Virus genome (UHGV): UHGV-0141872
Source: a virus
Length of the DNA: 12,686 bases
Reading direction: 5' to 3' (one strand)
Shown in pieces: positions 5,050 through 12,680 of this stretch. The notes under the pieces are model-generated. The model was not told where the DNA came from, did no database searches, and was given only the letters and a program-made list of their open reading frames with translations. Position 1 is the stretch's first letter; each line of letters begins with the position of its first letter. The translations under genes and the position numbers were made by a program.

Positions 5050-5665
5050 AGGAAAGCAAACGTGCTTATCGGATTTTCAAAAAAAGAATATTACCTTTGC
5101 GTTAATCATCCTGGCCTTCCGAAGCACATTTCTCAACTGAAAACGGGTATTTTCAGATTTCGTTATCTGTCATATTGACAGGCCCCACTTCTCCGGGGTA
5201 GTGAAGTAAGTGGCGTTTGCTTCCTGTAAATGCCCGAGAGTTATCCATGATCTCTTGTATTAGGCATTCCTCAGTGGACTAATTTCGGAGTTATCATCCT
5301 GTTCAATTTCATCCAGGATCCCCTACTTAATAAGTTCATCATTCTTCAGGTGGCAGTTTCTTTCAGCCAGCCGTGCAAGCAACAGCACATTCTTGTCGGG
5401 CTCAGAATAACTCCTGCAAATGCAACAATGATGACCGTAGCACCAATAACCTTGAGCTGCCCGCATCCGTAAAAAGCGAAGGCCCCAAATTACCAGAATA
5501 AAACTGAGCAGATATCCGACCTTCGTTACCGCATGGACTTCATTGTCTCATACACCAGGAGCAGCAAATTGCAAAGGATGAAGCACGCCCCATGAAGATT
5601 CTCCCAAAACTATAATTGTAAAAACCAAAGTAGAGGAAGCGAACACTTGCAAACCCGAACGTTGA

Positions 5666-5693
5666 ATAAAAAAAACCGCCTGGAGCGGCGGTT
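5666..5693 (-). terminator. Rho-independent terminator downstream of the tRNA pair
   Basis: Minus strand: AACCGCC-gctcca-GGCGGTT followed by TTTTTTTTATT. Confidence 0.5.
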
Positions 5694-6046
5694 AATGGCA
5701 TATAAAAACGCATGATTTAATTGTATTCAGAAGTGTCGGGTACCTCCCGAAGCATCCAGCCCCACATGGATACTGTGGTTTCCCGCTAAACCGACTCTTT
5801 AAACCACCCTCGCACTGAGGAACACCTCTGTAGTGTTTTTACAACACCGGGATAGTGCATCATCAGCCCTGCCAGGAAATACTAAATCTCCACCGATAAT
5901 GCACTATTCCATTGTTGTAAAAAATCAGCACTGAGGCTATAACCGACCTCAAACAATAGCCTGAGGACCAAAGATGTCTTAAAACAACCTGCCCCCACGT
6001 AAAAAAACACGCCAGTGCTGTATAATTCGTGTTGCCAGAATAATGA

Positions 6047-6121
<75 letters not shown>

Positions 6122-6124
6122 ATA

Positions 6125-6200
<76 letters not shown>

Positions 6201-6365
6201 ATTGGTTCCTCAGGTGTGGATGAGATGCCCGGATACATAAATTACCCTCCCTTGGAACCGATGAAGAATAATAATGAATTTCGTTCTTGTTTCAATACAA
6301 ACAATGTCAGGTATTTAAAACATAATTATACAATATTATAAAAATTAAAAAGTTCGCAAAAAAAG

Positions 6366-7412
6366 CTAACTATTGTTTCTTATTTCATCAAACGTTTGAT
6401 TAAACCTATCCTTTTCCAGCTCTACGCCAATAGCTCTACGTCCCAGAGAGAGCGCAGCCTTTATAGTCGCCCCCGATCCCATAAAAAAGTCTGCAACCAA
6501 TTCCCCCGGACGACTGCTGGCTATAATTATCTGCCGCAACATATCCGCTGGTTTCTCACACGGATGTTTACCCGGATAATACTGCACAGGTTTGTGCGCC
6601 CAGACATCCGTATAAGGAACGGCAGCCGATACGGAAAAGTAACGCCGCAGGGATTTGTACTCCTCTAGCAGGCTGGCATATTGTCGGTTCAGTTCGCTGT
6701 ATGTGCTGACCAGCTGGTGGTGTGGCTGTTCCAGTTCACCGCGCTGATGTTTTTCTGCTGCAACACGCGCAAACAACGCCTGCAGTTTTCTGTAATCAAC
6801 CTCATTCGGCAACTGCCACTGACTGGCACCAAACCAGTGTGAAGCCATGTTTTTCTTTCCGGTGGCTTCCGCTATCTGTTTTGATGTTATCCCCAGTGAT
6901 ACACGCGCATCACGAAAGTAAGAAATCAGCGGGGCCATGACGTGCTGTTTAAGCTTGCGCCCCTGTGCCGCATAGCCGTCATTTTTGGGCTGGTATGGCC
7001 CCTGATAATGTTCTGCAAACAGAATGCGTTCTGTTGCCGGGAAATACGCCCGCAGGCTTTCCTTGTTGCATCCGTTCCAGCGTCCGGACGGCTTCGCCCA
7101 GATAATGTGGTTCAGCACATTAAAGCGCTCACGCATCATGATTTCGATATCAGATGCCAGGCGATGACCACAGAACAGGTAGAGACTTCCGGCAGGTTTC
7201 AGTACCCGCCAGAACTGCGCCAGACACTGGTCCAGCCAATTCAGGTAATCATCGTCGCCCCTCCACTGGTTATCCCAGCCTTCGGGTTTCACTTTAAAGT
7301 ATGGAGGGTCTGTGACTATCAAATCGACAGAGTTTTCCGGTAAGGTCTGGATAAATTCCAGGCAATCAGCGTTGATTAACTCACAACTGGATATTTTTAC
7401 AGTGTAAACCAT
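6366..7412 (-). CDS. DNA amino-methyltransferase (N6-adenine or N4-cytosine), beta-class, orphan (no restriction enzyme partner in the window)
   Basis: Catalytic motif IV DPPY (LIVTDPPYF) near the N-terminus and AdoMet-binding motif I FxGxG (ADFFMGSGAT) near the C-terminus, the beta-class motif order. 348 aa; ATG at 7412. Confidence 0.85.
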   Translation of the reverse strand: MVYTVKISSCELINADCLEFIQTLPENSVDLIVTDPPYFKVKPEGWDNQWRGDDDYLNWLDQCLAQFWRVLKPAGSLYLFCGHRLASDIEIMMRERFNVLNHIIWAKPSGRWNGCNKESLRAYFPATERILFAEHYQGPYQPKNDGYAAQGRKLKQHVMAPLISYFRDARVSLGITSKQIAEATGKKNMASHWFGASQWQLPNEVDYRKLQALFARVAAEKHQRGELEQPHHQLVSTYSELNRQYASLLEEYKSLRRYFSVSAAVPYTDVWAHKPVQYYPGKHPCEKPADMLRQIIIASSRPGELVADFFMGSGATIKAALSLGRRAIGVELEKDRFNQTFDEIRNNS

Positions 7413-7549
7413 AGATCAATAAGCACTTCTCTGATAGGCTCATTCCGCTTTTGCGCAAAGCAGATGGGCCTGAGGTTTGCTTGTGACCCCAACGCATGAG
7501 CAGATGGCTGGCAGGTGCCGCTAACACCCACCAGCCGCCCATCACCACA

Positions 7550-7576
7550 AATTAAAAAGCCTTCACTGTGGAAGGC
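7550..7576 (-). terminator. Rho-independent terminator overlapping the stop of the 65-aa ORF
   Basis: Minus strand: GCCTTC-cacagt-GAAGGC followed by TTTTTAATTT. Confidence 0.45.
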
Positions 7577-7760
7577 GTCTGTAACAACCGAACTGATAAT
7601 CTGCCAGGCCCGCCATAACAAGCTGAGTCAGTATTAACTGGCAGCGCTCGCGTGAAAGGTAAGTATTCTGCGCAATCTCCCCGACAGTCGCCGGTTCGGT
7701 GACGCTTAATTCATTAAACACCACTCTGGCGGTTTCGGTCATATCCTGCTGTTTTAGCAT
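7563..7760 (-). CDS. Small hypothetical protein, 65 aa, possibly winged-helix/HTH-like (MLKQQDMTETARVVFNELSVTEPATVGEIAQNTYLSRERCQLILTQLVMAGLADYQFGCYRRLPQ)
   Basis: ATG at 7760 preceded by AAAAGGGAAAAAGAC; the longer ORF-track form starts with GTG at 7853 and has no SD. The HTH-like call is from the pattern TVGEIAQNTYLSRERCQLILTQL only. Confidence 0.4.
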   Translation of the reverse strand: MLKQQDMTETARVVFNELSVTEPATVGEIAQNTYLSRERCQLILTQLVMAGLADYQFGCYRRLPQ

Positions 7761-7881
7761 GTCTTTTTCCCTTTTCTGGTTAACGTGACATACCAATAAC
7801 TCTTGTCGAAAAAGCCAGCAAGCAGAAAGACCAGTATTAATAACTACCAGCACATTTAACGCACTGCGCTACTTTGCGGGC

Positions 7882-7906
7882 ACAAAAAACCCGCTCAGAG
7901 GCGGGG
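7882..7906 (-). terminator. Rho-independent terminator downstream of the CPBP-protease gene
   Basis: Minus strand: CCCGC-ctctga-GCGGG followed by TTTTTTGTG. Confidence 0.5.
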
Positions 7907-8047
7907 GGCAAGCTATGCGGAGAAATAACAACTCTTAACAGCATACCTGATTTTTTACGTACGTAAATGCTTTGCCGTGCATATTTTTCATGCAAATGTC
8001 ACATCCTGCTATTTTTCAGTGTTATAAATTTAAAGTCATAGAAAAAA

Positions 8048-8866
8048 TCAATTATGTTTTAAGAATGGATAGGTAAAGAATAACAAGTGACACAGATTCA
8101 AACCAAAATGGAAAAGGGTGGCAACCCACAAGCGCCCACTCCACATCCATGACAATCCATACACAACACCAGATAACGTGGCAAATAATACAAGTAAAGC
8201 ACCACCTGAATAGTGAAAAAAACCAAACAACAAAGCCGCCACAATTAACGCAACCAATGGAGACGTCACTTCTGATAGCCGTGATTGAATATACCCTCTA
8301 AATAATGACTCCTCAGCCAGAGACACAAAAAATAAATTAGCCAATATAAACTCTGGCAACCACTCAGGAAAATGAATCTCTGGCTTTAACCCACCCAAAA
8401 AAACAGCCAAAAACAGGATAAGAGGAACAGAGAGCAACAGAGTCCCCCACTTCCACAAAGACACTTCTGATTTCACTTCTTTTTTAAACAAAGAAGCTGT
8501 ACACAGGACTAACAAAAATGGCACCAGTGCTTTATCAAAATTAAAATACATTGTATAGGGAGTGCTTTGAGGCCCGACAGTAACAGACTTTAGCACTACA
8601 GGATTGTGAAACCCTGGCCATAAATGGAAAGATAATGCTATGGCTGATAAAACTATGCCAGCTTCATATATAGATTTAGCCCAGGCGTTATATTTCCAGT
8701 TGAGCTTCAAAATAATAAAAAAAACGATTGTAGCAACAAAAAACAACACCGACCAATCAATAATATCATTAAGCACAGCCAGGACAACTGACACCGTCAA
8801 TAATGAAAAAGCCACAACCTTATGCCAACTGAGAGTTGACAGTGACAGTGCTAACACAATCCACAT
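8048..8866 (-). CDS. CPBP-family intramembrane metalloprotease (CAAX protease / bacteriocin-processing, Abi-domain family), 272 aa, polytopic membrane protein
   Basis: All three CPBP signature motifs are present: EExxxR (AEESLFRG), FxxxH (FGFFHY), HxxxN (HFGLN), in a protein with about 7-8 hydrophobic segments. ATG at 8866 preceded by AAAGGAGCGCTT. The gene is strongly AT-rich relative to the rest of the prophage. Confidence 0.75.
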   Translation of the reverse strand: MWIVLALSLSTLSWHKVVAFSLLTVSVVLAVLNDIIDWSVLFFVATIVFFIILKLNWKYNAWAKSIYEAGIVLSAIALSFHLWPGFHNPVVLKSVTVGPQSTPYTMYFNFDKALVPFLLVLCTASLFKKEVKSEVSLWKWGTLLLSVPLILFLAVFLGGLKPEIHFPEWLPEFILANLFFVSLAEESLFRGYIQSRLSEVTSPLVALIVAALLFGFFHYSGGALLVLFATLSGVVYGLSWMWSGRLWVATLFHFGLNLCHLLFFTYPFLKHN

Positions 8867-8896
8867 AAGCGCTCCTTTTATTTAATGATGAAGATT

Positions 8897-8926
8897 GATT
8901 ATCAATATTTTCAATTCACCTGGCAA
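8897..8926 (-). promoter_or_regulatory. Candidate sigma70 promoter upstream of the CPBP gene (moron promoter, or the phage late promoter PR')
   Basis: Minus strand: TTGCCA (-35), 17-nt spacer, GATAAT (-10), about 30 nt upstream of the CPBP start and about 100 nt downstream of the Q stop. AT-rich context, so chance matches are possible. Confidence 0.35.
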
Positions 8927-9019: not shown

Positions 9020-9394
9020 CTACCGCATATCCATATCTAGCCGGACATTCAGAGCCATAAGCATTCCTTCAATAATACCTTCCGCTTTATAAAGTCTTTT
9101 ACCAATAAGACCATCAGAACATCTATGCTTACGTGCAAGAGCCATAAATGTCATTCCACCTACGTAATAATCCACCAACAAATCGTGCAAATACTGATTA
9201 TTCTTGTTTAATCGTGCCATACAGCCACAAATTATCATGGCATCATCATCAGAACACTGAGGACGTGATTTCACTTTAGTCGGGATTAATCCTTTAAAAC
9301 CAGCAGCTATCGAGGGCCATGTTACATCCTCATGATTATTTGCTGCCCATGCTCCCCACCGCTCCATAACCAGCTGAATATCACGCAACATCAT
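9020..9394 (-). CDS. Late-gene antitermination protein Q (phage 82 / QuuD-type), 124 aa
   Basis: [62 protein letters not shown]... closely matches my recollection of E. coli DLP12 QuuD / phage 82 Q. ATG-ATG start preceded by AAGAGGATG. Confidence 0.8.
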
Positions 9395-9476: not shown

Positions 9477-9752
9477 CTACTCGTCGTCTATGAGTAGTCC
9501 GGCATGCGTCAGCGCATCCAGTGGCGCTTTCAACAGGTTGTCCAGGTCACGACGGCGCTTATCCGGTGGCTCCACAATAATCCTGATCGCCAGCTTTTCG
9601 GACAGGTTTAATTTCAGTCGCTGCTGGCTAACAACTAGCGCTACATCACGGCAATAACGCTTTCCTGCTTCCGAGATGAAATACGTATTGCCATGACGTC
9701 GCCAGTAGGTATTCACCGTCGGCGGGTAAGGCAAAACAAACTCTATACGCAT
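9477..9752 (-). CDS. rusA: RusA-like Holliday junction resolvase, truncated at 91 aa by an in-frame TAG; the frame continues to 9381 encoding the expected RusA C-terminus
   Basis: RRRDLDNL and LIDD motifs (RusA catalytic Asp cluster). The TAG at 9479..9477 falls where E. coli RusA has Gln (CAG); downstream in-frame FDGINIVRGLPICGGRLGVNI aligns with RusA [21 protein letters not shown]. ATG at 9752 preceded by AAAGAGGTTACTG. Confidence 0.7.
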   Translation of the reverse strand: MRIEFVLPYPPTVNTYWRRHGNTYFISEAGKRYCRDVALVVSQQRLKLNLSEKLAIRIIVEPPDKRRRDLDNLLKAPLDALTHAGLLIDDE

Positions 9753-9764
9753 CAGTAACCTCTT

Positions 9765-10814
9765 TTACCCAAGCACGCCGGTTGCAAAGGCGTGATCAAG
9801 AAAACCAAAAATTAAATCAACCTGGGAACCATGCTTTTCTTCGAACGCCTGCGGATCTGCATGAAGTTCGTTGTGATGTTCCCGACACAGCGGCAACGTA
9901 AAAATATCGTGGGCTTTTGTCCCCATCCCGCCCTGACCGTGACCAATCAGGTGATGGGGATCGTCTGCTGGCTTACCACAACACGTACACGGCTGTGTCT
10001 TCACCCAGCGCGTATATTTCTCATTTACCCAACGGCGACGTTTAGGCCGCCTCATGAAAGATTCCGGTGACTCCGGATCAACGGTGATGCTGACCACCGT
10101 CTTTTCCTGTAGTGGGTTTTGTTGCTGGTGGGCGTGATATGGCTGCACAAGATTTTTTGTGCGCTGCTTCAGTACGCTGGTGGCTGTCTGCTCTCCCGGT
10201 ATGATTTCGCTTTCGCGGTACACCGAGCGGATTTTTTCCGCACGCAATCCCAGAGAACGACGTAATACTGCCTCCGGAAGCGCGTCCGCCACTTGATTGC
10301 AGACCGCCCACCAAGATAATTCAGCTAGCGATAACTCTCGCTCCTGTGTGCCATTCATTGCATGACGGATGACGTCAATCATCCATGCTGACAAGTTTTG
10401 GTGAGCTAGTAGCCCGAGTGATTCGGAGGTCTGGTCACGCAACTGGTTGTCGCAGTGCCAGCACAACACCATCGCGCCAGAGTCATAACGGTGAATGACG
10501 GTTTCACTGTGGTGATAATCGCCGTGTGGCCACTGGCAGGATTTAACATGGCGCAGTAACCAGTGAGACAATGCGCCAGCGCCACCAGCAGCACGAATCA
10601 CTCGTTCGTCGCTGAAAAATGACAGTAATGATTTATCCTCCGCCAGCGGCTGGCGAACGGCAGGGACGACTCCGGACGGCAGACCGAGCATGCTTTTCGG
10701 TTCCGGCTCCACCAGCACTCGAGGATTGTGAAATACCTTCATGGATTCACGACCTGGCTTAAGGACCACCAGCCCGAGTTCCGGTACCAGAACAGGTCGA
10801 AGTAATACCCGCAC
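9765..10814 (-). CDS. DUF968-like lambdoid nin-region protein (YdfU-like) with C-terminal HNH-like Cys/His motif, 349 aa
   Basis: C-terminal CTCCGKPADDPHHLIGHG...LCREHHNELH zinc-finger/HNH-like pattern. Size and position (just upstream of rusA and Q) match my recollection of E. coli Qin YdfU. GTG start at 10814 preceded by GGAGGTAAC; an internal ATG (MKVFHN...) is an alternative. Confidence 0.5.
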   Translation of the reverse strand: MRVLLRPVLVPELGLVVLKPGRESMKVFHNPRVLVEPEPKSMLGLPSGVVPAVRQPLAEDKSLLSFFSDERVIRAAGGAGALSHWLLRHVKSCQWPHGDYHHSETVIHRYDSGAMVLCWHCDNQLRDQTSESLGLLAHQNLSAWMIDVIRHAMNGTQERELSLAELSWWAVCNQVADALPEAVLRRSLGLRAEKIRSVYRESEIIPGEQTATSVLKQRTKNLVQPYHAHQQQNPLQEKTVVSITVDPESPESFMRRPKRRRWVNEKYTRWVKTQPCTCCGKPADDPHHLIGHGQGGMGTKAHDIFTLPLCREHHNELHADPQAFEEKHGSQVDLIFGFLDHAFATGVLG

Positions 10815-11628: not shown

Positions 11629-11784
11629 TTACTCCTCAGGTTCGTAAGCTGTGAAGACAGCGACCTCCGTCTGGCCGGTTCAGATTCGTACCTCGCAGAG
11701 GTCTTTCCTCGTTACCAGTGCCGTCACTATGACGGTTAAACAGATGACGATCAGGGCGATTAACATCGCCTTTTGCTGCTTCAT
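11629..11784 (-). pseudogene. hokD: hok-family type I toxin gene (HokD/RelF-like) interrupted by an in-frame TGA at codon 35
   Basis: Translation MKQQKAMLIALIVICLTVIVTALVTRKDLCEVRI*TGQTEVAVFTAYEPEE matches my recollection of E. coli HokD (51 aa) except that the Arg codon is TGA (11682..11680). SD AAGGAG lies 9 nt upstream of ATG at 11784. Confidence 0.6.
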
Positions 11785-11900
11785 AGCCTGCTTCTCCTTG
11801 CCTTTCGGCACGTAAGAGGCTAACCTACATGTGTCTAGCATGAAATTGGCCTCAGATTAATGTTAAGCGTCTTGCAGGACGCGTAATGTTAACTGGGGCT
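11785..11900. promoter_or_regulatory. hok mRNA leader / mok-overlap region; expected location of the antisense Sok RNA and its promoter (plus strand)
   Basis: Inferred from the canonical hok/sok architecture (antisense RNA complementary to the leader of the toxin mRNA). An in-frame upstream ATG (MLDTCRLASYVPKGKEKQA...) is present in the leader. Exact Sok boundaries cannot be set from sequence alone. Confidence 0.3.
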
Positions 11901-12085: not shown

Positions 12086-12325
12086 CACAACCTCCTGTAT
12101 TGGACGTACACCAGTCCTGATGAATATGAGGCTATCTCGTCAGTGATTCAATACAACTATTGGGTATAGTTTCTCTGATTTTTTCTGTGGTAATGGGGCA
12201 CAACCACTAGTCACCACCAGCACTTCTTTTAATACGCAAAGTCCGCCACAAGCTAACCCCCTAGTCCGCTTTGAGCGAACAGCGGACGTTGGCCGACCGC
12301 TCTTAGCGGCAAACGCCACCAAATG

Positions 12326-12356
12326 TAAATAAAAAAGCCACCTTATCAGGTGGCCA
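12326..12356 (-). terminator. Rho-independent terminator downstream of the alpha/beta-hydrolase gene
   Basis: Minus strand: GCCACCT-gata-AGGTGGC followed by TTTTTTATTTACATTT, 30 nt after the stop at 12385. Confidence 0.6.
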
Positions 12357-12384
12357 GTTCAGTGAATCTTTAAGTTATAAAGGG

Positions 12385-12646
12385 TTATTCAGCAAAGCAC
12401 TTCCTGGCATGCTCTTCCACGAACGCCGCTACGGTTTCCGGCGCTTCAAGCGGCGGGAAGTGGTTTACGCCTTTCAGGATTTTCAGCTCCGCGCCGCCGC
12501 CCAGCACCTGCTGCAGCGCCGCTGCAAACGGAAGCGGGTTTGGCGCGTCATTTTCGCCCTGCAGAATAAGCGCTGGCGCGGTGATAGCATCATACTGATC
12601 GGCCATTTCATGATTCAGAAACGCAGCGGCATTGGCCTGCATCGAG
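12385..12646 (-). CDS. Alpha/beta-hydrolase fold protein, C-terminal fragment (N-terminus lies beyond the contig end); probably a host gene
   Basis: C-terminal translation ...ITAPALILQGENDAPNPLPFAAALQQVLGGGAELKILKGVNHFPPLEAPE... is typical of the cap/His region of alpha/beta hydrolases. GC content is clearly higher than in the prophage. The first 10 residues of the ORF-track protein (MGSEMCIRDS) are translated adapter. Confidence 0.6.
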
Positions 12647-12680
12647 CTGTCTCTTATACACATCTCCGAGCCCACGAGAC
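12647..12680 (+). other. Illumina Nextera (Tn5 mosaic end) adapter, a sequencing/assembly artifact at the contig end
   Basis: Exact match to CTGTCTCTTATACACATCTCCGAGCCCACGAGAC, followed by 6 nt that would be the start of an index. Confidence 0.95.

What the first reader, a model, noticed from the sequence alone, without database searches (positions are those of the whole stretch)
6366..7760. Orphan beta-class DNA methyltransferase with an upstream small HTH-like gene in the late region
The 348-aa methyltransferase (DPPY ... FxGxG order) has no restriction endonuclease partner in the window. Phage-borne orphan methyltransferases typically protect phage DNA from host restriction or modulate epigenetic state. 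Its position inside the Q-dependent late transcription unit means it would be strongly expressed on induction, consistent with self-protection of progeny DNA. The 65-aa wHTH-like ORF upstream is terminated separately, so it is not obviously a controller protein.
Basis: partly seen in the sequence, partly recalled or inferred. Interest (0 to 1): 0.45.

Follow-up and report, generated by a model that had tools for sequence, protein, structure and literature searches.

The report
M.EcoGII-type phage adenine methylase
The gene is a close relative (about 84% identical) of M.EcoGII, a prophage enzyme already shown to methylate every adenine regardless of sequence, so the finding is real but already known; the undescribed parts are its small winged-helix companion gene and a strongly conserved, probably folded, RNA leader in front of it.

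Summary
A 348-aa beta-class N6-adenine methyltransferase lies at 6366-7412 (- strand), with DPPY at residues 35-38 and FxGxG at 310-314. A 65-aa winged-helix ORF lies upstream at 7563-7760. No restriction nuclease is in the window.

The enzyme is not of unknown specificity. It is 84% identical over its full length to M.EcoGII, 84% to the phage 1720a-02 methylase and 90% to phiP27 L24. [quoted passage not shown] The predicted role is blanket m6A modification of progeny phage DNA after induction.

Comparison places the late promoter PR' at 7967-7940 and its terminator at 7905-7884. The two genes would then be the first genes of the Q-antiterminated late operon.

Two things appear undescribed in the papers I read. 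The winged-helix ORF accompanies the methylase in 74 of 74 close relatives and 24 of 32 distant ones. The 130-nt leader before the methylase start codon is more conserved than the coding sequence (83% against 71%), has no Shine-Dalgarno sequence, and contains a helix with compensatory changes.

Verdict: already known, low interest. The regulatory leader and companion gene are a modest lead.

The parts
6366..7412 (-). M.EcoGII-family beta-class N6-adenine methyltransferase, 348 aa. DPPY is encoded at 7310-7299 and FxGxG at 6485-6471.
   Evidence: PF01555 E=4.3e-42. 84% identity over 347 aligned residues to M.EcoGII, 84% to the 1720a-02 MTase, 90% to phiP27 L24. Motif positions.
7413..7542 (-). 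Conserved 130-nt untranslated leader of the methylase gene. It begins with a long hairpin (AUGGGC GGCUGG UGGGUG loop CACCUG CCAGCC .. GCUCAU). Next comes a second helix (nGCUCAUG..CACAAGCn) that competes for the GCUCAU segment, then a GGCCCA/UGAGCC helix enclosing a GCUUU/AAAGC hairpin. The bases just before the AUG (UGAUC) can pair with GGUCA. No Shine-Dalgarno sequence is visible.
   Evidence: Alignments. 83% nt identity against 71% for the coding sequence. Top mutual-information column pair is 100% paired with 4 pair types. Pair counts. Compensatory variants L021, L242, L244. Covariance model hits 7408-7550 only, 145 bits. Window fold z=-3.0. No Rfam match.
7549..7576 (-). Hairpin plus U-run overlapping the stop codon of the small ORF. 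It is an intrinsic-terminator-like site between the two genes.
   Evidence: Consensus scan. The hairpin is conserved in homologues, though the U-run is weak outside the E. coli clade.
7563..7760 (-). 65-aa stand-alone winged-helix protein (phrog_331). It is a conserved companion of the methylase and has two invariant cysteines, C40 and C59.
   Evidence: phrog_331 E=1.4e-37. AF2 pLDDT 92. Foldseek matches generic winged-helix domains of MarR/IclR regulators, O-methyltransferase N-terminal domains and SelB. Co-occurrence. Invariant columns.
7884..7939 (-). Conserved initially transcribed region (GTTAAGAGTTGTTATTTC...) ending in the hairpin CCCGCCTCTGAGCGGG plus U-run (7905-7884). Proposed tR' and a short terminated PR' transcript of about 50 nt.
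   Evidence: Terminator scan. The block is shared with phages carrying three other Q alleles, always just upstream of the small ORF.
7940..7967 (-). Proposed late promoter PR': TTTACG (7967-7962), 16-nt spacer, TATGCT (7945-7940). The spacer ACGTAAAAAATCA is a candidate Q-binding element.
   Evidence: In every phage with the window's Q allele (77-98% identity), homology starts exactly at TTTACR whatever lies upstream. In L122 the upstream cargo is a reverse-strand lipoprotein gene. It matches 8 of 12 consensus positions, below the threshold of the scan. The assignment is inferred, not mapped.
8048..8866 (-). CPBP/Rce1-like membrane protein gene, inserted as cargo between Q and PR', with its own promoter-like site TTGCCA-17-GATAAT (8926-8898). 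Context only, not part of the methylase module.
   Evidence: PF02517 E=2.1e-19. phrog_13291. Promoter scan. The Q-proximal segment 8867-9019 is found only in loci that carry this gene.
9020..9394 (-). Antiterminator Q (124 aa), which would drive read-through of the two terminators upstream of the methylase.
   Evidence: PF06530 E=4.5e-51.
6047..6200 (-). tRNA-Thr(UGU) at 6125-6200 and tRNA-Gly(UCC) at 6047-6121, directly downstream on the same strand. This is the slot that holds ileZ/argO and stx in phiP27.
   Evidence: ARAGORN. Rfam tRNA 69.8 and 65.6 bits. phiP27 annotation.

Best explanation

It sits in a lambdoid prophage as the second gene of the Q-dependent late operon. The order on the - strand is PR' (7967-7940), tR' (7905-7884), the winged-helix ORF, a second terminator-like hairpin, a 130-nt structured leader without a Shine-Dalgarno sequence, the methylase, two tRNAs, and then the lysis genes.

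In the lysogen, transcription from PR' stops at tR'. The second hairpin and the poorly translatable leader add further insulation, so the toxic enzyme stays silent.

After induction, Q-modified RNA polymerase reads through both terminators. The enzyme is made while phage DNA is replicating and being packaged. Progeny genomes become heavily m6A-modified and so resist the many host restriction enzymes whose sites contain adenine.

Shown here: family membership, gene order, conservation of the companion ORF and of the leader. Taken from the literature on M.EcoGII: non-specific activity, silence in lysogens, toxicity. Inferred: the positions of PR' and tR', late expression, and the anti-restriction role for this particular copy.
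For: Family membership. PF01555 with beta-class motif order. 84% identity with no large indels to the M.EcoGII sequence printed in Supplementary Table S1 of PMC11551740. By my count from that alignment this includes about 83% identity across the target-recognition region, residues 160-237. 84% identity to the phage 1720a-02 MTase, which Murray 2018 names as a very similar homologue. 90% identity to phiP27 L24.

Properties of the family. M.EcoGI and M.EcoGII are non-specific, unexpressed in the lysogen and slow growth when expressed (PMC5778455). Reconstructed ancestors of the family remain largely non-sequence-specific (PMC11551740). REBASE-style annotation already labels 92-94% homologues as 'nonspecific' (PMC6602927).

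Context. The same module (small ORF, about 150 nt, MTase, then tRNAs and/or stx) occurs in phiP27, 1720a-02, Stx2a phages and SfV. Q lies upstream and the lysis genes downstream on one strand. Two terminator-like hairpins lie upstream of the MTase. The PR' block is conserved among phages with the same Q allele. No nuclease partner was found.
Against: No activity, methylome or expression data exist for this copy. 16% of residues differ from M.EcoGII, and specificity changes cannot be excluded by sequence alone.

The M.EcoGII sequence I compared against was machine-read from a PDF and contains a few obvious reading errors, so the true identity may be slightly higher.

PR' and tR' are assigned by comparison only. 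The promoter matches only 8 of 12 consensus positions, and Tree 2014 (PMC4104026) draws PR' directly after Q with cargo downstream of it.

Protection from restriction by this family has been shown in vitro (PMC5778455) but, in the papers I read, not for phage particles.

The prophage may be defective. The contig ends in a hydrolase fragment and a sequencing adapter about 1.7 kb beyond the nin-region DUF968 gene (9765-10814).
Confidence: 0.78

Rival explanations
1. The winged-helix protein and the structured leader form a post-transcriptional gate on the methylase. This would resemble phage Mu com-mom, where a small upstream-encoded protein binds the leader RNA and opens a structure that blocks translation of a toxic DNA-modifying enzyme. 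This reading adds to the best explanation rather than replacing it.
For: The small ORF is adjacent in 74 of 74 close relatives and 24 of 32 distant ones, with fixed spacing. The leader is more conserved than the coding sequence. It has no Shine-Dalgarno sequence, and the bases just before the AUG can pair with GGUCA (98% of cells paired). Two mutually exclusive helices share the GCUCAU segment, and both survive a 3-4 base change in L021, L242 and L244. Winged-helix domains can bind RNA hairpins, and SelB is among the fold matches. Mom and M.EcoGII are cited together as silent-in-lysogen and toxic enzymes (PMC12707154).
Against: Eight of 32 distant loci and 7 of 121 leader-anchored loci keep the leader and the methylase without the small ORF. 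Four loci keep the small ORF and the first hairpin without the methylase. The protein is not related to Com, which is a zinc finger. The fold matches are generic, with E-values around 1e-3. Only one helix has real covariation; the rest is invariant. M.EcoGII is expressed and active from plasmids without the small protein (PMC5778455).
Confidence: 0.2
2. The winged-helix protein is a subunit that redirects the methylase to a specific substrate such as rRNA. The precedent is the phiPA8 Stx-phage methyltransferase, which acts on 16S rRNA only with its upstream winged-helix partner PNB-2.
For: Gong 2023 (PMC10810198) reports that an upstream winged-helix ORF co-purifies 1:1 with a phage methyltransferase and confers a preference for RNA. 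M.EcoGII can methylate RNA in vitro. The tight co-occurrence seen here fits a partnership.
Against: The phiPA8 enzyme belongs to the MT-A70 family and lies at the other end of the phage genome, whereas this one is PF01555. M.EcoGII alone is fully active on DNA, and its initial rate on RNA is about 100 times lower (11.12 against 0.12, Supplementary Table S3). Many homologues lack the small ORF.
Confidence: 0.07
3. It is a sequence-specific orphan methylase (Dam- or CcrM-like) with an epigenetic regulatory role, or the methylase half of a restriction-modification system whose nuclease lies outside the window.
For: PADLOC and NCBIfam models label it generically as a Type II or adenine-specific methyltransferase. 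The window covers only 12.7 kb.
Against: Its nearest characterised relative at 84% identity is non-specific. Sequence-specific relatives with solved structures (RsrI, CcrM, MboIIA) match only the catalytic core at E=1e-15 to 1e-25. NCBIfam scores are far below the equivalog cut-offs. The annotated flanks of this module in phiP27 and 1720a-02 (about 4 kb each side) show no partner nuclease beside it; the only nuclease-like neighbour is a GIY-YIG family protein that occupies a variable cargo slot in phiP27 alone.
Confidence: 0.05

Closest known systems
M.EcoGII and M.EcoGI, non-specific adenine methyltransferases of E. coli O104:H4 C227-11 prophages (Murray et al. 2018, PMC5778455)
   Same: Beta-class motif order. 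Length 348 against 349 aa. 84% identity over the whole protein, including the central helix-turn-helix target-recognition region. Prophage location. The closest phage homologues of M.EcoGII (93-94% identity) carry the same upstream small ORF and the same position after Q.
   Different: About 16% of residues differ. Activity has not been measured for this copy. Here the slot after Q holds a CPBP membrane-protein gene, and tRNA-Thr and tRNA-Gly follow the methylase instead of stx.
phiP27 L23/L24 and phage 1720a-02 'DNA methyl transferase' modules (also SfV orf47/orf48)
   Same: Same two-gene module with a spacer of about 150 nt, the same conserved leader and the same upstream terminator block. 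L24 is 90% identical to the methylase, and L23 is 100% identical to the small protein over the aligned 65 residues.
   Different: Different Q alleles (46-48% identity). Different cargo between Q and the module: a GIY-YIG nuclease family gene in phiP27 and nothing in 1720a-02. stx lies downstream in those phages.
Phage Mu com-mom
   Same: A toxic DNA-modifying enzyme that is silent in the lysogen, made late, and preceded by a gene for a small (about 60 aa) protein and a structured leader around the start codon.
   Different: No homology. Com is a zinc finger and Mom is an acetyltransferase-fold enzyme. Any regulatory role for the winged-helix protein here is untested, and part of the family lacks it.
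phiPA8 M.EcoPA8orf6770P-PNB-2 (Gong et al. 2023, PMC10810198)
   Same: A Stx-type phage methyltransferase with a small winged-helix ORF immediately upstream, preceded by a terminator.
   Different: That enzyme belongs to the MT-A70 family, lies near the left end of the phage, needs the partner for activity and prefers 16S rRNA. M.EcoGII-type enzymes are active alone on DNA.
Controller (C) proteins of Type II restriction-modification systems
   Same: A small DNA-binding-type protein encoded next to a methyltransferase.
   Different: C proteins are Xre-type helix-turn-helix dimers that time the expression of the nuclease. Here the fold is a winged helix, no HTH_3-type match was found, and there is no nuclease gene.

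Membership tests
M.EcoGII family of non-specific beta-class adenine methyltransferases | N6_N4_Mtase domain with beta-class order: motif IV (DPPY) N-terminal, target-recognition region central, motif I (FxGxG) C-terminal | tested here: met
   PF01555 E=4.3e-42 over residues 29-340. DPPY at 35-38 and FMGSG at 310-314.
M.EcoGII family of non-specific beta-class adenine methyltransferases | Full-length sequence similarity to M.EcoGII, including the central helical target-recognition region (residues 160-237 in PMC11551740) | tested here: met
   290 of 347 residues identical with 2 single-residue gaps that coincide with reading errors in the PDF-derived sequence. About 83% identity across 160-237 by my count from that alignment.
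M.EcoGII family of non-specific beta-class adenine methyltransferases | Encoded on a lambdoid prophage, like the homologues listed by Murray 2018 (for example phage 1720a-02) | tested here: met
   Q, holins, endolysin and RusA in the window. Same module as 1720a-02 and phiP27.
M.EcoGII family of non-specific beta-class adenine methyltransferases | Methylates adenine in any sequence context (DNA, single-stranded DNA, RNA) | not testable with these tools
   Known for M.EcoGII, M.EcoGI and reconstructed ancestors. Inferred here from 84% identity.
M.EcoGII family of non-specific beta-class adenine methyltransferases | Silent in the lysogen and deleterious when expressed | not testable with these tools
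   Consistent with two terminator-like hairpins upstream and a leader without a Shine-Dalgarno sequence. No expression data.
Type II restriction-modification system | A cognate restriction endonuclease gene next to the methylase | tested here: not met
   No nuclease or restriction-enzyme family among the window ORFs. The neighbours are a winged-helix ORF and tRNAs. Limited to the 12.7-kb window.
Controller (C) protein | Xre-type helix-turn-helix protein that regulates an adjacent nuclease gene | tested here: not met
   The only Pfam hit is a weak TrmB winged-helix match. The AF2 model is a winged helix. There is no nuclease gene.
MT-A70/PNB-2 rRNA methyltransferase holoenzyme (phiPA8) | MT-A70 family catalytic subunit | tested here: not met
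   The protein matches PF01555 only. The phiPA8 enzyme is described as MT-A70.
Any described RNA family (Rfam 15), for the leader | Match to a curated covariance model | tested here: not met
   No hit on 7390-7960 at E<=10, and none on the leader at E<=1.

The most novel reading that the evidence does not exclude
The M.EcoGII-family genes carry an undescribed cis-regulatory RNA. It is a roughly 130-nt leader with two mutually exclusive helices built on the same GCUCAU segment and an occluded start region without a Shine-Dalgarno sequence. The co-inherited 65-aa winged-helix protein, or some other late signal, would act on this leader. Together they would form a translational safety catch on a genome-wide, toxic methylase, functionally like Mu com-mom but built from unrelated parts.
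Probability: 0.2. Interest if true: 0.5.

Novelty: already known. Interest (0 to 1): 0.25.

Why it matters
As a methylase, it adds nothing new. The family is characterised, sold as a reagent and already recognised in Stx and other lambdoid prophages.

What may matter is how the phage keeps such an enzyme harmless until lysis. This has not been worked out in the papers I could read. The fixed architecture found here gives a concrete, testable model for that control: PR'-tR', the winged-helix ORF, a hairpin, a highly conserved structured leader, and the methylase. It also gives a candidate new RNA element.

Knowing that these prophages release heavily m6A-modified DNA also bears on their host range. 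It affects how they fare against restriction systems and against m6A-dependent Type IV systems.

Tried and rejected
(1) A small protein encoded in the leader. The 55-aa GTG ORF at 7381-7548, and the reading frame that opens at the leader's invariant ATGGGC (7542), are not conserved. Most homologues have an in-frame TAG after seven codons (ATGGGCGGCTGGTGGGTGTTGTAG), and 1-nt indels shift the frame. Rejected.

(2) A known RNA family. No Rfam hit even at E<=10.

(3) Homology to the phiPA8 methylase/PNB-2 pair. That enzyme belongs to a different family (MT-A70), so the comparison is analogy only.

(4) PR' directly after Q (TTGCCA-17-GATAAT at 8926-8898). That segment occurs only in loci that carry the CPBP gene. 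In L122, which has 82% Q identity, Q is followed by a terminator and a reverse-strand gene. I therefore assign that promoter to the CPBP cargo gene.

(5) StxS and AgvB/AsxR as the identity of the short PR' transcript. StxS is a 258-nt RNA processed to 74 nt in Sakai phages. The anti-sRNAs lie downstream of the cargo genes, after stx. Neither is the same element, and I had no sequences for a direct comparison.

(6) A local hairpin AUCAG/CUGAU before the AUG. Only 89% of cells pair, against 98% for the long-range GGUCA/UGAUC pairing. Neither option shows covariation.

(7) Reaching more distant methylase relatives to gain covariation. The profile-based scan of viral contigs returned only the 80 closest loci. 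The covariance model did not detect the shorter Photorhabdus and Xenorhabdus leaders.

(8) Fold search on the small protein. It returned only generic winged-helix matches at E around 1e-3, with no functional assignment.
Full report
**What is there**

On the - strand the window reads as the right arm of a lambdoid prophage:
- DUF968 at 9765-10814
- RusA at 9477-9752
- antiterminator Q at 9020-9394 (PF06530, E=4.5e-51)
- a CPBP/Rce1-like membrane protein at 8048-8866
- a 65-aa ORF at 7563-7760
- a 348-aa ORF at 6366-7412
- tRNA-Thr and tRNA-Gly at 6200-6047
- two holins and an M15 endolysin at 4922-3828

The 348-aa protein is an N6_N4_Mtase (PF01555, E=4.3e-42). DPPY is at residues 35-38 and FxGxG at 310-314, which is the beta-class order.

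**What the methylase is**

Similar DNA is widespread. It occurs in phiP27, Stx2a, Stx2c and Stx2d converting phages, SfV, phage 1720a-02 and thousands of E. coli genomes, where it is annotated as a DNA methyltransferase.

Murray et al. 2018 (PMC5778455) describe M.EcoGII. It is a 349-aa beta-class enzyme from an E. coli O104:H4 prophage that methylates adenine in any context, is not expressed in the lysogen and slows growth when expressed. They name the phage 1720a-02 enzyme as a very similar homologue.

The window protein compares as follows:
- 84% identical to the 1720a-02 enzyme
- 90% identical to phiP27 L24
- 84% identical, end to end, to the M.EcoGII sequence printed in Supplementary Table S1 of PMC11551740

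That printed sequence is machine-read and has a few obvious errors, so the true identity may be marginally higher. The similarity runs through the central helical target-recognition region.

Reconstructed ancestors spanning comparable divergence remain largely non-sequence-specific. Homologues at 92-94% identity are already listed as 'nonspecific' in a methylome study (PMC6602927).

Solved structures of sequence-specific relatives (RsrI, CcrM, MboIIA) match only the catalytic core. I therefore file the gene as a member of the M.EcoGII family. The activity itself is inferred.

**Orphan status**

Pfam and PADLOC scans of the other window ORFs find no restriction nuclease and no defence system. 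In the annotated flanks of phiP27 and 1720a-02 (about 4 kb each side) the module has no partner nuclease beside it.

**Position in the late operon**

Comparison refines this.

A block reading GTTAAGAGTGGTTAC..., followed by a G+C hairpin and a T-run, lies just upstream of the small ORF. It is found in phages with at least four different Q alleles. In the window the block is at 7939-7884 and the hairpin at 7905-7890.

In phages whose Q is 36-46% identical to the window's, Q ends only 219-254 nt from the small ORF. PR', its Q-utilisation site and tR' must therefore lie in that interval.

In all phages with the window's Q allele (77-98% identity) the gap is at least 808 nt and holds varied cargo. 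In L122 the cargo is a reverse-strand lipoprotein gene behind a terminator. Homology among these phages starts exactly at TTTACR-N16-TATGMT, immediately before GTTAAGAG.

I therefore place PR' at 7967-7940 and tR' at 7905-7884. The CPBP gene, with its own promoter-like site at 8926-8898, is cargo inserted between Q and PR'. The small ORF and the methylase are then the first two late genes.

This assignment is an inference. The promoter matches 8 of 12 consensus positions, and no transcript mapping exists.

The arrangement fits the reported silence of M.EcoGII in lysogens. Two terminator-like hairpins (7905-7890 and 7576-7559) stand between a constitutive PR' and the methylase. Only Q-modified polymerase would pass them.

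**The small ORF**

It is a real gene:
- It belongs to phrog_331 (E=1.4e-37).
- It has 334 database relatives at E<=0.001, mostly annotated as 'TrmB family transcriptional regulator' or 'DprA-like winged helix'.
- AlphaFold2 gives a confident three-helix, two-strand winged helix (pLDDT 92).
- C40 and C59 are invariant.

Fold matches are generic. They include winged-helix domains of MarR/IclR regulators, N-terminal domains of O-methyltransferases and the RNA-binding domains of SelB, all at E around 1e-3.

It is not a C-protein. The fold is not Xre-type and there is no nuclease to control.

It is, however, tightly linked to the methylase:
- 74 of 74 methylase-anchored viral loci have it adjacent, and 59 of those have a spacer of exactly 150 nt.
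- 113 of 121 leader-anchored loci have it.
- 24 of 32 full genome loci across Enterobacterales have it. These include Photorhabdus, Xenorhabdus and Rosenbergiella, where it is only 37-41% identical while the methylase is 66-71% identical.

Exceptions occur in both directions. Some loci keep the methylase with other small ORFs or nothing upstream. Four loci keep the small ORF while a 238-aa AT-rich ORF replaces the methylase. Its function remains open.

**The leader (found in passing)**

The 130 nt between the second hairpin and the methylase AUG (7542-7413) are the best-conserved part of the module. They are 83% identical to the window across 14 genome loci in which the methylase coding sequence is 71% identical. 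The leader is present whether or not the small ORF is there.

It does not code for protein. Most homologues have an in-frame TAG after seven codons, and 1-nt indels occur. There is no Shine-Dalgarno sequence. No Rfam family matches. A covariance model built from 72 distinct leaders finds exactly one copy in the window (7408-7550, 145 bits).

Predicted folding gives three elements (z=-3.0):
- a long 5' hairpin: AUGGGC/GCUCAU, then GGCUGG/CCAGCC, then UGGGUG/CACCUG
- a 3' domain: GGCCCA/UGAGCC enclosing GCUUU/AAAGC
- a long-range pairing of GGUCA with the UGAUC just before the AUG

Most helix positions never vary, so they say nothing either way. One helix does carry real evidence.

That helix is nGCUCAUG...CACAAGCn. 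Its closing pair is the highest mutual-information pair among all column pairs. It is paired in every sequence and shows four pair types: U-A 34, A-U 17, C-G 16, U-G 4.

In three divergent leaders (L021, L242, L244) the helix changes to GCCCGUU...CACGGGC. One pair is exchanged (U-A to C-G) and two mismatches become pairs.

The same changed segment still complements the upstream AUGGGC. Two mutually exclusive helices are therefore preserved together. This pattern suggests a switch, but the sample is small.

**Mechanism and rivals**

Best supported (0.78): a non-specific adenine methylase made only after Q antitermination, which blankets progeny DNA with m6A against host restriction.

An add-on hypothesis (0.2): the leader, possibly with the winged-helix protein, gates translation of the toxic enzyme in the way Com gates Mom in phage Mu. 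A recent review pairs Mom and M.EcoGII as silent-in-lysogen, toxic modification enzymes (PMC12707154).

A partner-subunit model (0.07) follows the phiPA8 MT-A70/PNB-2 rRNA methyltransferase (PMC10810198). It is less likely because the enzyme family differs and M.EcoGII works alone on DNA, about 100 times faster than on RNA.

A sequence-specific or restriction-linked role is unlikely (0.05).

**Verdict**

The gene is nonetheless a member of a characterised family, so novelty is 'already known' and interest is low. The conserved companion ORF and the structured leader are not described in the papers I read. They are the only parts worth follow-up.

Noticed in passing
window 7413-7542 (- strand); covariance model hit 7408-7550: The leader before the methylase AUG is more conserved than the coding sequence (83% against 71% nt identity). 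It is non-coding, has no Shine-Dalgarno sequence and matches no Rfam family. One helix has compensatory changes, and an alternative pairing uses the same GCUCAU segment. It is a candidate new cis-regulatory RNA of M.EcoGII-family genes.
   Followed up: partly
window 7884-7967 (- strand): Promoter-like TTTACG-N16-TATGCT, followed by a conserved block GTTAAGAG... and a strong terminator. This is probably PR' and tR', giving a terminated RNA of about 50 nt in lysogens. That would be analogous to lambda 6S RNA or StxS, though I could not compare the sequences.
   Followed up: partly
window 12647-12680 (+ strand): Exact Nextera transposase adapter CTGTCTCTTATACACATCTCCGAGCCCACGAGAC at the contig end, fused to a fragment of an alpha/beta-hydrolase gene (12385-12646). 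This is untrimmed read adapter and an assembly artefact. It does not affect the finding.
   Followed up: yes
window 12289-12646: The last ~400 bases of the window (from 12289, including the hydrolase fragment at 12385-12646) have no counterpart in the E. coli genomes that match the rest of the window at about 95%. The host may not be E. coli, the prophage may be truncated here, or the contig may be chimeric.
   Followed up: no
window 8048-8926 (- strand): A 272-aa CPBP/Rce1-like intramembrane protease homologue (phrog_13291) with its own good promoter-like site (TTGCCA-17-GATAAT). It is inserted as cargo between Q and the proposed PR'. It might be expressed from the lysogen, for example as an immunity or exclusion function.
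   Followed up: partly
window 11680-11841 (- strand): A hok/gef-family toxin ORF (PF01848, E=1.5e-12) in the nin-region side of the prophage.
   Followed up: no
window 5662-5952 (- strand): Downstream of the tRNAs lies a long hairpin (5825-5936; weak matches to miRNA-precursor models, which only indicates a long stem). A weak STnc100-like match covers 5662-5852 (20.6 bits, E=0.22), and there are two terminator-like sites. This is the region where lambdoid prophages are reported to carry convergent small RNAs (PMC4104026).
   Followed up: no
L002 (phiP27) 5562-6791: In phiP27 the cargo slot between Q and the proposed PR' holds a 409-aa GIY-YIG nuclease family protein directly upstream of the winged-helix/methylase pair. 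A nuclease next to a blanket methylase could be a host-DNA degradation and self-protection pair, or it could be unrelated cargo.
   Followed up: no
L055, L094, L120, L140 (viral contigs): These loci keep the winged-helix ORF and the first leader hairpin, but the methylase is replaced by a 238-aa AT-rich ORF with its own TTGATG-N18-TATAAT promoter-like site. The recombination breakpoint lies inside the leader.
   Followed up: partly
window 7563-7760 (- strand), protein residues 40 and 59: Two cysteines are invariant in the alignment. By eye they also appear to be kept in the 37-41% identical Photorhabdus and Rosenbergiella homologues (ORF translations). One is at the start of the recognition helix and one is in the wing.
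   Followed up: no
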